64,000 nucleotides of DNA from positions 241,118,001-241,182,000 of the forward strand of contig OZ024742.1 of the NCBI GenBank assembly GCA_964016885.1, in the 5' to 3' direction. This DNA is from Eledone cirrhosa (Eukaryota). The notes under the pieces were generated by a model. That model was not told the origin of the DNA, searched no databases, and saw only the letters and a program-made list of their open reading frames with translations. Below, one piece after another: positions 27,606-54,713 of the stretch (position 1 is its first letter; every line of letters begins with the position of its first letter). The translations under genes and the position numbers were made by a program.

Positions 27606-28441
27606 TACACTAAATTCGAAACCATTTAATATAAAACTTAATTTATAATTTCTTAATAAAAGACAAAATTTGAAAACATTAAATATATATACCTTGTTCT
27701 AATCTTCACGAATTTTAGTTATCATTTACAATTTTTAAGTAGTTAACAGTTCCTATATATATTGTATCTCTATAAATATGTTATACAAAGACTATGTGAT
27801 ACACAAAATACGGTATACATATATATATTTATACAAATGTTAGTATTATATGTATACATGTATACGCATGCATATATATATATATATATATATATATATA
27901 TATATATATATATATATATAAACGGAAAAAATGAAACAAAATTTCATTTCCCACTCTTAGTACGGCTGTTACTTAAATATAAGTATGTATACGTACATAC
28001 ATATATGTATACAGACGTACAGTAGTATGTATATATATATACATACATGTACGTCTGTATACATGTATGTATGTACGTATACATACTTATATTTAAGTAA
28101 GAGCCGTACTAAGAGTGGGAAATGAAATTTTGTTTCATTTTTTCCGTTTATATATATATATATATATATATATATGCATGCGTATACATGTATACATATA
28201 ATACTAACATTTGTATAAATATATATATGTATACCGTATTTTGTGTATCACATAGTATTTGTATAACATATTTATAGAGATATAATATATATAGGAACTG
28301 TTAACTACTTAAAAATTGTAAATGATAACTAAAATTCGTGAAGATTAGAACAAGGTATATATATTTAATGTTTTAGAATTTTGTCTTTTATTAAGAAATT
28401 ATAAATTAAGTTTTATATTAAATGGTTTCGAATTTGGTGTA
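27606..28441. repeat. About 840-bp near-perfect palindrome (composite inverted repeat)
   Basis: 27606-about 28030 is the reverse complement of about 28040-28441, with few substitutions. The inner part is the same family as 48465-48857. Confidence 0.92.
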
Positions 28442-28588
28442 TATATATATATATATATATATATATATATATATCGAGCCCTCTTTGGATTTTAGTCTTC
28501 GCATTTATTATTATTACTTTATATATATATATATATATATATATATATATATATATATATATATATATATATATATATATATATACAC

Positions 28589-28793
28589 ATACAATATTTA
28601 ATATAGAAATGGCTTTTATTTCTAAAGGACTATTGTTTCATTCGAAGGAAATCATCAGGCAAGTTTTCCTGATGATTTCCTTTGAATGAAACAGTCCTAG
28701 TCCCGTAGAAGCCATTTCTATATTGTATATTGTATATACTCTACTATGAATTCAGTACCCTACTTACTGTGTTTACCCCCGTTTGTACCCGGG
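28589..28793. mobile_element. (TA)n-flanked inverted-repeat element with hammerhead cores (Penelope pLTR-like)
   Basis: Arms meet near 28663. CTGATGA(28669)-TTTCCTTTGAAT-GAAAC on +. CTGATGA..GAAAC-AATA-GTC on - (28628-28658). Confidence 0.7.
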
Positions 28794-29881
28794 ATATATA
28801 TATATATGTGTGTATATATATATATATGCGTTGCTAATATTGCCAAAAGGAAGAAACATACGCACCATATAATTTTCACTTTATCTTTTGTTATTCATTT
28901 GTTTGTCATGACAAATTAGAAGACTAGGGCTCAGTAGATAACATAGAAATAAAGATCCTATCCACACATAAAACTGACGTAACACTATACAGAGGCAACA
29001 CACATAATAGAAGAGAGCCCTAGCCTGAACAGACACCACTAGTAGAATAGTAAACGCTCGCAACTTAACCACTGAAAACAGAATAGAGAAAAAAAGGATA
29101 CAAATAGCAAAACAGAAAACGATACCCCCTCCCCCACACCTCCCACCCCACCCCACATAAAACAGACGTACACATAACAAATACAAAAAAAAACACTAAT
29201 ACACACAAAATAACGCACTGCAAAACAAACAAAAACAAGACCAGTAAAAAAGGAGGCACAAAACAAATAATCATTGAGGCGATCACTTATATATATGTGT
29301 GTCTGTGTGTGTATGTGTGTCTGTGTGTGTATGTGTGTGTGTGTGGAAACAAAGGGGTAAATATAAAATGCAAGAAGGAGAGCTAATTATAAAGTATATA
29401 CATACAAATACTCTCGCCTTCTGAATATAACTGGGAAACAATCTTCAACCAACGGAAGCTATCCTTGCAAATTCAAGACTACATATTTGGGTATTCTGAT
29501 TGTTAAAAAGAGAGAAAACTTCGTTAGTCTCACGACATCCATTTCTTTGAACATGTTTAGACAATTCTGAAGACAACGAAAATGTCATTGCTTCTACTTA
29601 GCAGAGTATATTCGATTAGCATGTTGGCAGGATCACAATACACTCAAATATATAAAAGGGTATAGGAATATGTATCAGCAAAATTAGAATAGGTGTTTAA
29701 AATAACATAATACTTAAAATGTTGCTACATTAACTAATTGAGATTCCAATTAGTATATATATACTGTATATATATATATATATATATATATATATACAGT
29801 AGATATATATATATATATATATATATATATATATATATATATATATATATATATATATATATATATATATATATATATATA

Positions 29882-30136
29882 TAGGAAAATGTTTAACCCC
29901 GACGGCAGAGCTCAAGCCGTTTCGACGGCTATTTCTGGACTAAATTAGAATTTTTAGCGTGGTAATGTATTTATTACCACGCTAAAAATTCTAATTTAGT
30001 CCAGAAATAGCCGTCGAAACGGCTTGAGCTCTGCCGTCAGGGTTAAACATTTTCCTATTACCCACTCTACTACCCTAAGTATTGAGTATTCTGGTGCGTT
30101 GGGGTCCATCTGGTTACTTACCACACTTCCTTCGTT
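29882..30136. mobile_element. (TA)n-flanked palindromic element, 'TTTTCCTA' family, with hammerhead 3' half
   Basis: Perfect-looking arms at 29882-30058, centred near 29969. GAAACGGC-loop-GCCGTC at 30016-30038. About 80-nt one-sided tail ending ACCACACTTCCTTCGTT. Relatives at 30687, 44905 and 54579. Confidence 0.8.
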
Positions 30137-30686
30137 ATATATATATATATATATATATATATATATATATATATATATACACATGGTGGCTGCCAACTCG
30201 TTTTCGAGTACGGCCACTACTTTATATCCCTGTAGGAGAACCCCTATCGATGCGCTGAACAAGTGTGACTTTTTAGTCCAACCAGCGACTTGAAAACTCT
30301 GGTACAAACACTACACTTGTGACAATTATTGACACATAGTTATGAGTCCATGGTACCATGTGATGACAAGTGCAGAGAAATCTCCAGATATAAAGCAATG
30401 CCTGTGCCGTGAAGCTTTTATAGTGAGCAAAGGCACTGCACAAAGCCAGTCACACTCTCTTAACCAAGATGATATTTACCAAAAAGAACAAGTCAACATC
30501 ATTGGATACCATCAGGGTTGCAGGTATTATATCAGAGTTTTCCTTCTAGAATTCTGCCTTGACAAAGGCTAAGGAGTCATCTCTCCCGGTGATTTTGGGT
30601 GGCCATTGACTCTTAAGAGCTCCTTTGCCCTTTGACAGGTTTTGTTATATATATATATATATACATACATACATGCATATATATAT

Positions 30687-51972: not shown

Positions 51973-52299
51973 TGTGTGTGTATATGTGTGTGTGTTTATG
52001 ATAAGAAAAATAACATTCAAATATCCTGGGCTTTTCTCTTGAATGATTTACATCATTTCATCTAATCTAAACAATTCCATGTCGTGTTAATCTGCAACGA
52101 ATATCCAATAATTGTATACGCTATACTTAAATCATGCACACTCGATGTTCCGTGTAAGGACAGTGAGCAATTAAATATAAGAACTCACTGTAAACATGTG
52201 AAGATATATAGTGCAAATAAAAATACTAAATATACAAATGAATTCGGTTCTTAGAATATATAGATTTGTTCTGCGTATCTTCGGGTAAATATACACGTC

Positions 52300-52856
52300 C
52301 CTTTACGATCTGAGTTCAAATCCCGCCAAGGTTAACTTTGCCTTTCATCCTGACGAGGACGATAAAATAAAGTACCAGTAATGTACTGGGTAATTGCTGG
52401 CCTTGTGCCGAAAGTATAAACAATTATTATTGATACAGGATGGCAGTGAATTGGCAGTATCAGTAGAGAGTCAGACGCTATGCTTTGCAGCATAGAGTTA
52501 TGGTCTTTTGTGTTCTGAGTACAAATACCGCCGAGGTTAACTGTCTTTCACATTCTCCTCTTTCTTTCTTTGTATCCCTCCTTTTCCTGCGAACACTTCA
52601 TCTTTCTCTCATTTTAACTTTCACGGTATCTCCCTCTCTCAACTTTCCGGAATTAATCTAGTACAATTAGATATGGGGATTAATGGCTTATACGAGGTTA
52701 TTATGGAGCGTCTACAAATCCATCGTGAGTACAGCGTCTTCTCGCTGAGGTTATCATTGCCTTTCATCCTTACGGGATCGATAAAATAACGCATCAGTAA
52801 TGCCCTGGGTAATTGCTGGCCTTGTGCCAAAAGTAGAAACAATTATTATTGATACA
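52300..52856 (+). mobile_element. Two tandem Nin/Deu-like SINEs, the second interrupted
   Basis: Cores at 52340 and 52760. ATTATTATTGATACA is duplicated at about 52423 and 52842. An unrelated insert occupies about 52550-52742. Confidence 0.7.
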
Positions 52857-53340
52857 AGTGAGAAAAATATAAATTGTCATATTTCAAAGTCTTGACATGC
52901 TCAGAAGAATTAAAGACAGATTTGGAATTCAACATCCAAAACGCATTAAAAAAAGGCTAGTTCAATAGGAACTAACAAATATGGTTTCCTTTATTGACCA
53001 ATGGAATGGTTATATAAGTTATACCTCCCTCGTATCCGTCTCTACTTATACATCGCCCATCATCCCTTCTCACAAACATAAATGTTTTATCACTTTCCTG
53101 ATAAATACTTTTAGCTAAAGACCAGAAGCCACCCATACTCCCAATTAGATAAAACCTATATGAACAACATCCCACTCTACACAAACATATCGCTTCCTCT
53201 AATATCTCTCTCTCTCATTACCACCTGATTCTGTTACCCGGAGATTTACCCATCTGCATTGTTGAGGCTTCCAAAACGTCAATTTTTATTATTCCACAAT
53301 GCTTCAAGCAAACTTCAACGCTATCTTATATATATATATA

Positions 53341-53925
53341 TATAATATGTTGAGAAGGTGACACACCAGAGAGAGATATATAGTGCGTTATCAATAATAT
53401 TTTGCTCCTAATAACAGTCTTTCCTATCTCTGTTTGGTTGAGTGGCTTTGGGCTGCCCTTTCTAGCAGTTCGTCTCTCAGAGCCCACTGGTTCACTGCCC
53501 TTAAACACGCTGTGACTTCTCTCTCCCACGTGTAGCTGGACAGTCAATTGTAAAATTCTCTTAGTGTTGTCTGAAATGTATGGCCTTACACACGCTGATG
53601 AACCGAGACTAGACCATTTCTTTCAACAAATTTTTTGGTGAAACATATCTTTGGATTTCTACGTGTGTTATATAGTTATAAAGGTATTTATTTACGCTTT
53701 AATTTATATTTTTAATTATCGTGTCTATAGTCTGCCTTTCATAGGTTATAGATTCCATACACTGGTGGTTTTTTCCCTGTATTATTGATAACGCACTATA
53801 TATCTCTCTCTGGTGTGTTACCTTCTCAACATATTATATTTTAAAGGGCTCAGGATCTCTTCCCCTTTGAGAACATTATTTACAGGGAATAACGACGGCC
53901 TATGCCTCCGTTAATTTATCGTGAT
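53341..53925. mobile_element. (TA)n-flanked element with about 58-bp inverted repeats, internal hammerhead and 3' tail (pLTR-like)
   Basis: 53342-53399 mirrors 53780-53838. ACACACG-CTGATGA(53595)-ACCGAGA..TTTTGGT-GAAAC(53640)..TA-CGTGTGT; stem III is degenerate. Confidence 0.75.
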
Positions 53926-54578
53926 ATATATATATATAACGTACTGCCAGAGGTAACTCTTAGGGACATCTTTCTCTTTCACACCATCATTCGACAAGCA
54001 GTAAATAGCCTAACCGCCCCTGCTCATCCTACACCACGCTCTTCACTGCCTCGCCAGCATGGACGCGGGGTGGGGTGGAGTGTGGGACACCACAAGGGCC
54101 TTAGAAACGAAATAAAGGGAGATGCTGGGTCGATAATAAAATGCACTTAGCTCAAATTGGGAAGTGATAATGCTGGTTTCACGATAAATGCACCAGTCCA
54201 CACTGAAATTGTAGTAGCGCTGGTGTCATGGTTAAAAGCACCCATCCCCCATTTCAAGTAATATTGGTGGTGCCATGATAAAATGCACTTTGGACACACA
54301 TGGGAGATTGTGTTAACAAGGGTATCCAGTGGTATAAACCATGACAGATTGGAACGTATGAGTGGAACATTGACAGCTGACATGTCTGGCTTCAGAACGT
54401 AACAACGTGCTTAACCCATTCATGGTATATATATATATATATATATATATATATATATATATATATATATATATATATATATATATATATATATATATAT
54501 GTATATATATATATATATATATATATATTTATATATATATACATAAATACACACACACACACACATATATATATATAT

Positions 54579-54713
54579 AGGGAAAGAGTCAGGACACCGA
54601 CGGCTGAGCTCCGACCGTTTCGACTCTTTTCCTATTACTCACTCTACTACCGTAAGTATCGAGTACTCTGGTGCGTTATAGGTCATCTGGTCTCTTACCA
54701 CACTTTCTTTGTT
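54579..54713. mobile_element. Member of the 'TTTTCCTA' family in (TA)n
   Basis: GGGAAAGAGTC..GACTCTTTTCCTA inverted repeat; GAAACGG..CCGTC on the minus strand; same 80-nt tail as 30058-30136. Confidence 0.75.

What the first reader, a model, noticed from the sequence alone, without database searches (positions are those of the whole stretch)
27606..54713. Many unrelated asymmetric palindromes in (TA)n, often carrying hammerheads, share one architecture
Seen: about a dozen elements (27606, 28589, 29882, 30687, 31078, 32487, 34434, 44905, 47540, 48062, 48465, 53341, 54579). Most follow (TA)n - short arm - centre - mirror arm plus a one-sided tail - (TA)n. Arms differ by a few substitutions, so they are not simple read artefacts. 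Complete, partial or degenerate HHR cores occur in most and point outward from the centre. Known: Penelope-like elements carry minimal HHRs in pseudo-LTRs, favour microsatellites and form inverted 5'-truncated insertions with an optional tail. Inference: an unusually diverse set of TA-targeted, ribozyme-bearing PLE/retrozyme-like RNAs is converting microsatellites into fold-back DNA. If transcribed these give long dsRNA hairpins, potential ADAR or siRNA substrates, which matters if the host is a cephalopod.
Basis: partly seen in the sequence, partly recalled or inferred. Interest (0 to 1): 0.75.

Follow-up and report, generated by a model that had tools for sequence, protein, structure and literature searches.

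The report
Head-to-head Penelope retroelement stubs in (TA)n
These palindromes are back-to-back pairs of short end pieces of Penelope-type jumping genes and their gene-less passengers sitting in TA repeats, a known insertion product, and their ends suggest that each was likely written by two reverse transcriptases starting on opposite sides of one DNA cut, which would make an open question about how these elements insert testable.

Summary
The inverted repeats are real (8 in 27 kb, 0 in 5 shuffles), but the 13 listed elements belong to 9 repeat families, not 13. Five families run into Hydra-type Penelope-like (PLE) ORFs elsewhere in the genome, two are tandem hammerhead units (retrozyme-like), one is SINE-like without ribozyme, one is unlinked. 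Complete hammerhead cores sit in 5 of 13, 3' halves in 4, none in 4. Each family has two fixed 3' ends (T1; T2 = T1 plus tail). Of 216 head-to-head pairs with both ends called, 204 are T1/T2, and in 82 the tail-less arm reaches further 5', which fold-back copying cannot make. Centres pile up at initiator-like sites, not at ribozyme cut sites. Best reading: two-ended target-primed reverse transcription in (TA)n, cDNAs joined head to head. The architecture is published (Arkhipova 2013, Craig 2021); I did not find the counts in print. Element 27606 is an exception (single-copy flank duplicated, likely snap-back). Transcription and editing are untested; no A-to-G bias found. This scan noted the same class before on other DNA of this genome.

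The parts
27604..28443 (.). Element A: symmetric 840-bp palindrome; inner part 27919-28150 is two tail-bearing (T2/T2) arms of the 48465 family, outer 270 bp are single-copy flank duplicated in inverted orientation; likely snap-back product; no hammerhead
   Evidence: reads inconclusive
28589..28796 (.). Element B: T1 arm (left) + T2 arm with 65-nt tail (right); type I hammerhead core at 28669 (+); family subfamily B2 is the promoter/5' end of a Hydra-type PLE
29884..30137 (.). Element C: T1 arm + T2 arm with 80-nt tail; 3' half of a U3-A8 type I hammerhead on each arm; Hydra-type endonuclease 600-790 nt upstream in longer copies
30829..30999 (.). Element D (listed as 30687): older copy of the C group, T2 arm left, T1 arm right; centre bridged by a short-read contig
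31002..31312 (.). Element E: short T2 arm with tail (31002-31114), inner inverted piece, long T1 arm with hammerhead (core 31175, U4C, 61-nt stem II region); Hydra-type endonuclease about 850 nt upstream in one longer copy
32488..32960 (.). Element F: T2 arm with 85-nt tail (left) + T1 arm; complete hammerheads at 32675 (-) and 32859 (+); 3' end of a young Hydra-type PLE (99% to copies with ORF)
34386..34580 (.). Element G: T2 arm + T1 arm, truncated downstream of the family's minimal hammerhead; no ORF found
37687..39743 (-).
44908..45006 (.). Element H: C group; 36-nt tail fragment joined head to head to a 63-nt T1 arm; no mirror arms
47405..47538 (+). Solo T1 arm of the G family, starting 3 nt after the family's predicted ribozyme cut site
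47540..47975 (.). Element I: T2 arm (35-nt tail) + T1 arm of a 520-nt ORF-less, hammerhead-less family; recurrent centre at a GATC microhomology
48062..48432 (.). Element J: T2 arm (160-nt tail) + T1 arm; U3-A8 hammerhead at 48312 (-) and its mirror at 48342 (+); Hydra-type endonuclease 380-520 nt upstream in longer copies
48465..48857 (.). Element K: T1 arm + T2 arm (58-nt tail) of a 422-nt tandem hammerhead unit (retrozyme-like), truncated downstream of the ribozyme
53341..53925 (.). Element L: 60-nt T1 arm + one whole 541-nt tandem hammerhead unit ending at T2; core at 53595 (+)
54579..54714 (.). Element M: C group; 46-nt T1 arm + arm that is almost only tail

Best explanation
The elements are head-to-head pairs of 5'-truncated copies of Penelope-like retroelement ends and of non-coding passengers, sitting in (TA)n, and each pair was likely made by two reverse transcriptions primed on the two sides of one endonuclease cut. 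Shown: every family has two fixed 3' ends, T1 and T2 (T1 plus a 35-165-nt tail); insertions nearly always carry one of each; long copies with the same ends contain PLE ORFs; the tail is simply the next stretch of the element (start of the ORF or its leader, or the next tandem unit). Inferred: a GIY-YIG endonuclease cuts both strands in (TA)n; one DNA end primes at T1 and the other at T2 of the same or a sister RNA; each cDNA stops at random or at the RNA's 5' end; the two cDNA ends are joined by microhomology, often with short templated inserts. When priming happens in the promoter-proximal copy of the terminal repeat, both cDNAs run off the transcription start after 60-300 nt and give the short, near-perfect palindromes. 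The hammerhead is a passenger that reads outward because both arms point their 3' ends outward; in a read-through transcript its antisense arm is made first and would likely sequester it.
For: Two 3' end peaks in each family reference (sharp in 11 of 12, blurred in B2). 282 head-to-head pairs; 216 with both ends called: 204 T1/T2, 10 T2/T2, 2 T1/T1; by eye 5 of the 10 T2/T2 are T1/T2 miscalled in AT-rich ends; independent choice of ends would give about half alike. Pairs not selected by any query: 56 T1/T2, 1 T2/T2. T1 arm reaches further 5' in 82 of 204, T2 arm in 27, equal in 95 (22, 1, 33 in the unselected set). The same rule holds for kilobase-long ORF-bearing pairs. ORF links: F in 5 loci, C in at least 7 and J in at least 8, B tail runs straight into an ORF in L415, E in L419. 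Junction overlaps cluster at -4 to +1 nt and short templated inserts occur. Arms are closer to each other than to other copies in 11 of 11 references and share 46 variants seen in no other sampled copy. 5' ends pile up at initiator-like sites: 15 of 44 F arms at two adjacent bases, 19 of 30 I arms within 5 nt, 22 of 35 B arms within 10 nt with a TATA box 30 nt upstream; the tandem families K and L show no pile-up. In vitro a PLE protein cuts and extends both strands, prefers AT-rich DNA, starts at two internal sites that bound the tail and does not need ribozyme cleavage (PMC11167929, passages).
Against: No experiment; all mechanism is read from end products. 66 of 282 pairs have an internal or unclear end and were not counted. 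Loci were mostly chosen as best hits, and references from one subfamily cut alignments of another short, which inflates the B and C pile-ups. Arm similarity could come from later gene conversion or from one source locus being active at a time, so 'same RNA' is not shown (317 private single-arm variants against 46 shared). Promoter calls rest on motifs: F has an initiator-like site but no TATA at -30, and the PLE at 37.7 kb is 4 nt off. Four to seven true T1/T1 or T2/T2 pairs exist, and element A needs snap-back DNA synthesis. No ORF was found for G, I, K, L or for the subfamily of D, H, M. The window's own hammerhead copies do not fold better than shuffles.
Confidence: 0.72

Rival explanations
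1. One cDNA (or an antisense template) folds back and primes copying of itself, giving the mirror arm; the tail is trimmed from one end by the endonuclease. This is close to the self-priming proposal for Adineta Penelopes.
For: Proposed for head-to-head palindromes in PMC3846280 (passage). Explains element A: two tail-bearing arms plus 270 bp of inverted single-copy flank. Explains shared private variants and templated inserts at junctions and the few T2/T2 pairs. Compatible with the 27 T2-longer and 95 equal pairs.
Against: In 82 of 204 pairs the tail-bearing arm is the shorter one and often lies wholly in the tail, so neither arm can be a copy of the other; elements H and M in the window are of this kind.
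Confidence: 0.12
2. Two separate RNA molecules, possibly from different loci, are copied onto the two ends by independent enzymes, or two successive insertions hit the same TA site.
For: (TA)n sites collect many insertions of different families side by side. Two-ended priming does not by itself need one RNA.
Against: Independent events would give T1/T1 and T2/T2 often (12 or fewer of 216 seen), a TA spacer between arms, and arms from different subfamilies; arms are abutting and closer to each other than to other copies in 11 of 11 references.
Confidence: 0.1
3. The palindromes are TIR DNA transposons (MITEs) that move as fixed hairpin units.
For: Families I and F have many copies with the same centre at 98-100% identity on different contigs.
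Against: Ends are asymmetric (T1/T2), centres vary, junction letters differ between same-centre copies, single arms and tandem arrays occur, and long copies hold RT-GIY-YIG ORFs.
Confidence: 0.03
4. Assembly or read fold-back artefacts.
For: Element A duplicates single-copy DNA and its right arm was not covered by laid contigs; its arm differences could be the two haplotypes.
Against: Family-specific T1/T2 ends at hundreds of loci with different flanks; arms differ; a short-read contig spans the centre of D with no mismatch (same sample as the best holder, so not an independent animal).
Confidence: 0.03

Closest known systems
Hydra clade of C-terminal EN+ Penelope-like elements (Craig et al. 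2021, PMC8557442; Hydra-1_Obim listed with (TA)n preference in its File S1)
   Same: DKT motif, CxCx5C linker, CxxC and CxH around the conserved E and N, short ORF, hammerhead in the terminal repeat, (TA)n target.
   Different: Sequence identity to the published families was not tested; some families here have 3' regions of 1.3 kb or more with microsatellite tracts, U3-A8 cores (C, J) or a very long stem II (E).
Typical EN+ PLE insertion unit: inverted 5'-truncated copy next to the 5' end, 30-40-bp tail often at one end only (PMC8557442 Fig. 2 legend; PMC3846280)
   Same: Head-to-head orientation, one-sided tail that is the start of the ORF region, palindromes and microhomology at the junction.
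   Different: Here tails are 35-165 nt, most units have no ORF sequence at all, and the one-tail rule is counted (204 of 216) and shown in both length orders.
Poseidon element PAc of Anolis in vitro (Frangieh et al. 2024, PMC11167929)
   Same: Two RT start sites bounding the tail, both target strands cut and extended, AT-rich target, ribozyme not needed.
   Different: Different clades; the passages I read do not show how the two cDNAs are resolved; the genomic pairs here suggest one start site per DNA end.
Animal non-LTR retrozymes (Cervera and de la Pena 2020, PMC7229834; Li et al. 2026, 10.64898/2026.07.22.740005)
   Same: K (422 nt) and L (541 nt) are ORF-less tandem units with one type I hammerhead per unit.
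   Different: Slightly longer than the 150-450-bp range given; they carry PLE-type T1/T2 ends and head-to-head junctions, which supports PLE mobilisation, proposed but not shown in the passages read. Circular RNA not tested.
L1 twin priming (recalled, not from a call)
   Same: Two primers from one cut site give an inverted 5' part.
   Different: In L1 the second primer starts internally and the two parts do not overlap; here both start at the element's 3' ends and copy the same sequence.

Membership tests
EN+ Penelope-like element (families B, C, E, F, J) | Single ORF with PLE-type RT and C-terminal GIY-YIG endonuclease collinear with the terminal repeat | tested here: met
   ORF or EN remnant directly upstream or downstream of the family end in longer copies; Atlas neighbours of the F protein carry HTH_animal/GIY-YIG; Pfam copy gave no hit for the four PLE proteins. 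E rests on one locus with two collinear supports, B on subfamily B2 (79% to the window copy).
EN+ Penelope-like element | Pseudo-LTR that overlaps the ORF start, with optional tail | tested here: met
   Tail runs into the ORF in the 37.7-kb family and in B2; not seen directly for C, E, F, J (no full-length copy in hand).
EN+ Penelope-like element | Hammerhead motif in the terminal repeat | tested here: met
   Descriptor hits in family references B, E, F, G, K, L and in the window for J; C folds as a three-way junction with U3-A8 core in 4 of 4 matches found. Self-cleavage not testable.
EN+ Penelope-like element | Target-site duplication | not testable with these tools
   Targets are (TA)n, where a duplication cannot be read.
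Hydra clade | DKT motif, RWK-like motif, CxCx5C linker, no CCHH | tested here: met
   F: DKT, CxCx5C; B2: RWR, DKT; C, E, J: CxCx5C; definition.
Hydra clade | Placement in an RT tree with reference Hydra families | not tested
   No reference proteins in hand.
Neptune/Nematis-type PLE (copy at 37.7-39.7 kb) | CX2-5CxxC linker before a C-terminal GIY-YIG | tested here: met
   Cx4CxxC in the 1217-codon frame of L104; Neptune and Nematis not told apart.
Non-LTR retrozyme (K, L) | ORF-less tandem unit with a type I hammerhead in each unit | tested here: met
   Periods 422 and 541 nt; tail continues into the next unit in 20 of 42 and 28 of 53 tail ends.
Non-LTR retrozyme (K, L) | Self-cleavage and circular RNA in vivo | not testable with these tools
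   Needs bench work and RNA data.
TIR MITE | Symmetric fixed terminal inverted repeats and fixed internal structure | tested here: not met
   204 of 216 pairs have unlike ends; centres and arm lengths vary.
PLE or retrozyme (families G, I) | Own ORF or tandem hammerhead unit | tested here: inconclusive
   G has a hammerhead but no ORF or tandem in 8 candidates; I has neither ribozyme nor ORF in 23 candidates. Both have T1/T2 ends, so they work like PLE passengers.

The most novel reading that the evidence does not exclude
Penelope-like elements integrate by a strictly asymmetric double priming: one protein dimer on one RNA uses start site T1 for one end of the cut and T2 for the other, and priming in the promoter-proximal repeat makes 'double strong-stop' stubs. 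Retrozymes and a ribozyme-less SINE-like RNA hijack the same two sites. At about 100,000 copies these stubs would be the main source of near-perfect hairpin RNA in this genome and so a likely driver of the very high non-coding A-to-I editing reported for octopus.
Probability: 0.25. Interest if true: 0.72.

Novelty: new member of a known kind. Interest (0 to 1): 0.45.

Why it matters
How PLEs form their inverted ends and tail is named as an open question in PMC8557442 (passages), and the one proposal I found, self-priming on an antisense template (PMC3846280), predicts arm lengths that 82 of 204 pairs here break. The genome offers a very large natural record with sharp predictions (one T1 and one T2 per insertion; stub centres at transcription starts; both arms from one template) that the existing in vitro system can test. 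The PLE-type ends on two retrozyme-like units are direct sequence evidence for who mobilises retrozymes. Arms of such palindromes cover about 0.5% of the sampled DNA, and 11 of the 14 palindromes in 400 kb have this build; octopus was reported to have an unusually high share of loci able to form near-perfect dsRNA and very high hyper-editing, without repeat annotation (PMC5625713, passages). If the host is a cephalopod and the loci are transcribed, this names a candidate source. The architecture itself is known.

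Tried and rejected
Rfam at gathering score: 0 hits in the window; at E up to 10 on 27500-35000 the 150 of 156 rows shown are hairpin-type chance matches, none a hammerhead. First descriptor was too strict and missed F. 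Pfam family search for the PLE helix-turn-helix domain failed, the accession is not in this library; Pfam scan found nothing in 4 of 4 PLE proteins. Apparent K-to-ORF links are low-complexity matches (about 72%) and were dropped, as were single B and L rows. The 3.6-kb repeat of E on C28 is a local duplication, not a full element. Idea that centres mark the ribozyme cut site: rejected; arms starting within 4 nt of the predicted cut among unselected copies: B 0 of 45, K 0 of 33, L 0 of 21, F 1 of 19, G 2 of 11 (both arms of one palindrome). Idea that I and F palindromes move as units: rejected, junction letters differ. Fossil A-to-I editing: no sense-strand A>G excess (shared 17 A>G, 31 T>C; private shared 6, 8). 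Cap-derived extra G at junctions: not clear in the 24 junctions printed. No common fold of the tails. No RNA holder listed. Reads on element A were inconclusive: repeats were skipped and the right arm had no coverage. Search of earlier notes near this window gave nothing. Literature: 8 searches found no paper with end-pair counts or a two-ended model for PLE palindromes; subscription journals are largely missing, and the bioRxiv supplements were not seen.

Full report
OBSERVATION. An ungapped scan and a self-comparison of the window confirm near-perfect inverted arms at 9 of the 13 listed places, plus 60-bp arms 380 bp apart at 53341 and short outer arms at 31078. A stricter scan finds 8 palindromes in 27606-54713, none in 5 shuffles, and 14 in 40 evenly spaced 10-kb samples from the seven largest contigs. 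The region is thus about eight times richer than average, and the class may number about 100,000 in this 3.0-Gb genome (rough extrapolation). Two listed elements (44905, 54579) are not real palindromes, one (27606) is symmetric, and several boundaries needed moving.

FAMILIES. Searches of the window's own genome show that the elements belong to dispersed families, most with 900-4,000 first-look candidates, I with 23 and G with 8. The 13 elements fall into 9 families: C group (29882, 30829, 44905, 54579), K (48465 and the inside of 27606), B, E, F, G, I, J, L. Longer copies of F lead after 1.3 kb into an RT-endonuclease ORF in 5 loci; C and J have the endonuclease end 600-790 and 380-520 nt upstream; in L415 the B tail runs straight into an ORF (subfamily B2, 79% to the window copy); E has the endonuclease about 850 nt upstream in L419, with collinear support in two more loci. 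The proteins have DKT and CxCx5C motifs, which define the Hydra clade of PLEs (section 11 of PMC8557442); that paper's File S1 lists an octopus Hydra family with (TA)n preference. K and L are ORF-less tandem units of 422 and 541 nt with one hammerhead each, as in non-LTR retrozymes. I is a 520-nt unit without ORF or ribozyme. G has a minimal hammerhead and no ORF in the 8 candidates found. The window also holds, unlisted, a truncated PLE of another clade at 37687-39743 whose family has intact 1217-codon frames.

HAMMERHEADS. Rfam finds none. A descriptor allowing C3-G8 or U3-A8 cores finds 5 exact hits in the region against 0.83 on average in 60 shuffles. Per listed element: complete in B, F, J, L and (one core change, 61-nt stem II region) E; 3' half only in the four C-group elements; none in A, G, I, K. 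The apparently degenerate cores of J and of the full C family are the compensatory U3-A8 variant described for Schistosoma PLEs (PMC4209133, parts 1-2 of 4 read); the full C ribozyme folds as a three-way junction. The window's own copies fold no better than shuffles. Cleavage is untested.

TWO ENDS, ONE OF EACH. Each family reference shows two 3' end peaks, T1 and T2, 35-165 nt apart. The tail between them is the element's next stretch: ORF start in the 37.7-kb family, leader before the ATG in B, next unit in K and L. I collected 282 head-to-head pairs from the window and the 394 loci then in hand. In 66 at least one end was internal or unclear, mostly through subfamily divergence, and these were set aside. 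Of 216 with both ends called, 204 are T1/T2, 10 T2/T2, 2 T1/T1. By eye, five G-family T2/T2 calls are T1/T2, three are doubtful, two are true. Among pairs that no query selected, 56 are T1/T2 and 1 is T2/T2. In 82 of 204 the tail-less arm reaches further 5' (T2 arm 27, equal 95; unselected 22, 1, 33). A shorter tail-bearing arm cannot be a copy of a tail-less arm, and in H- and M-type pairs neither arm contains the other, so fold-back cannot be the general route. Kilobase-long ORF-bearing pairs follow the same rule. Junctions abut with overlaps of a few bases and often hold short templated inserts. Arms resemble each other more than other copies in 11 of 11 references (for example F 1.2% against 3.2%), with 46 private variants on both arms and 317 on one; this fits one template but also later gene conversion.

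WHY THE CENTRES RECUR. Families F and I have many copies with the same centre, which first suggested units that move whole; their junction letters differ, so the centre is a hot spot. 5' ends pile up at initiator-like sites: F 15 of 44 arms at two bases, I 19 of 30 within 5 nt (8 of 18 unselected copies within 10 nt), B 22 of 35 and C 60 of 73 unselected copies (both inflated by subfamily divergence). B2 has a TATA box exactly 30 nt upstream, C a TATA-like word at the same distance, I a weaker one; F has none at that distance, and the 37.7-kb family is 4 nt off. K and L show no pile-up, as expected of tandem or circular templates. Predicted ribozyme cut sites are not enriched. The reading that stubs copy the first 60-300 nt of the transcript came into focus from earlier notes of this scan and was then checked here as described; it remains an inference from motifs.

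MECHANISM. Most likely (0.72): the endonuclease cuts both strands in (TA)n; one end primes reverse transcription at T1 and the other at T2; the cDNAs stop at random or at the RNA's 5' end and are joined head to head by microhomology. This fits the in vitro behaviour of the anole element, which cuts and extends both strands, starts at two internal sites bounding the tail and does not need ribozyme cleavage (PMC11167929, passages). Whether one RNA serves both ends is open. The ribozymes read outward simply because both arms point their 3' ends outward; a read-through transcript meets the antisense arm first, and the hairpins (about -80 to -320 kcal/mol) would likely block ribozyme folding. Element A differs: both arms carry the tail and 270 bp of single-copy flank are duplicated in inverted orientation, best explained by one cDNA snapping back and copying past its own insertion point; an assembly artefact mixing haplotypes is not excluded.

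READS AND EXPRESSION. A short-read contig from the best-holding sample spans the centre of D without mismatch; this may be the assembled animal. For A, contigs cross the left boundary, and two runs show the right-arm letters at two positions, but the right arm had no coverage. Transcription, small RNAs and editing could not be tested. Arms cover 0.5% of the sampled 400 kb, and 11 of its 14 palindromes have this build (7 from the families above, 4 from others by eye). PMC5625713 (passages) reports a very high share of potential near-perfect dsRNA and of hyper-editing in octopus without naming the repeat, and heavy editing of Penelope in lizard. The host here is likely a cephalopod by recalled resemblance only.

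WHAT IS KNOWN. Inverted 5'-truncated copies, a one-sided tail, microsatellite targeting and hammerheads in pseudo-LTRs are all published (PMC8557442 passages, section 11 and two supplement rows; PMC3846280 passages; PMC4209133). PLE mobilisation of retrozymes is proposed (PMC7229834 passages; bioRxiv 10.64898/2026.07.22.740005 part 1 of 5 and passages; its supplements not seen). PMC6962438 (passages) added nothing specific. Eight searches found no count of end pairs and no two-ended model. Earlier notes of this scan describe the same class on other DNA of this genome.

VERDICT. Observation partly confirmed, interpretation partly supported. New families of a known kind with a known architecture; the value lies in the counted one-T1-one-T2 rule, the length orders that exclude simple fold-back, and PLE-type ends on retrozyme-like and ribozyme-less passengers. 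Interest 0.45.

Noticed in passing
window 7802-26280 (+): Several neighbouring copies of an APE-RT-zinc-finger LINE, ending in (TATC)n; the first has open frames of 647 and 1153 codons. Looks like a microsatellite-targeting Tx1/L1-type element (name recalled).
   Followed up: partly
window 37687-39743 (-); L104, L101-L120: Young Neptune/Nematis-type PLE family: 24,021 first-look candidates, intact frames of 1217 codons with a long asparagine-rich insert, multi-kilobase head-to-head pairs. N-rich inserts are described for rotifer Penelopes.
   Followed up: yes
window 30185-30640 (+): 455-bp repeat between TA runs with extreme depth in laid contigs (about 10^6 against about 7 for single-copy DNA) and 10 matches in 400 kb of samples; not identified.
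   Followed up: partly
window 28476-28519: 43-bp stub of a further TA-flanked family, 47 matches in 36 loci; longer copies in L002, L003, L034 show the same arm-plus-tail build.
   Followed up: partly
window 50926-51950 (+): Decayed RT-like coding stretch ending near (TAGA)n; an IAVGN-like motif recalls CRE/NeSL elements (recalled, untested).
   Followed up: no
window 6321, 36150-36315, 40737-40887, 42400-42640, 52295-52850, 57590-58390: About ten copies of a 100-190-bp SINE-like repeat; from memory it resembles an octopus tRNA-derived SINE, my only hint at the host besides genome size.
   Followed up: no
window 43239-43304 and 43950-44017: 66-bp inverted arms 650 bp apart, not TA-flanked and not assigned.
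   Followed up: no
families C and J (L283, L279, L282; window 48312): Hammerheads with the compensatory U3-A8 core, known from Schistosoma PLEs; the C ribozyme has a 5-bp stem III and folds as a monomer, but most stubs start inside its stem II.
   Followed up: yes
G000:C12:17068761-17468721: Seven hits of the 37.7-kb PLE family with identical score about 60 kb apart: a large tandem segmental array.
   Followed up: no
L415, L416, L139, L411, L126: Different PLE families nest in each other's TA ends; each insertion leaves (TA)n on both sides, which may explain local clusters such as this window.
   Followed up: partly
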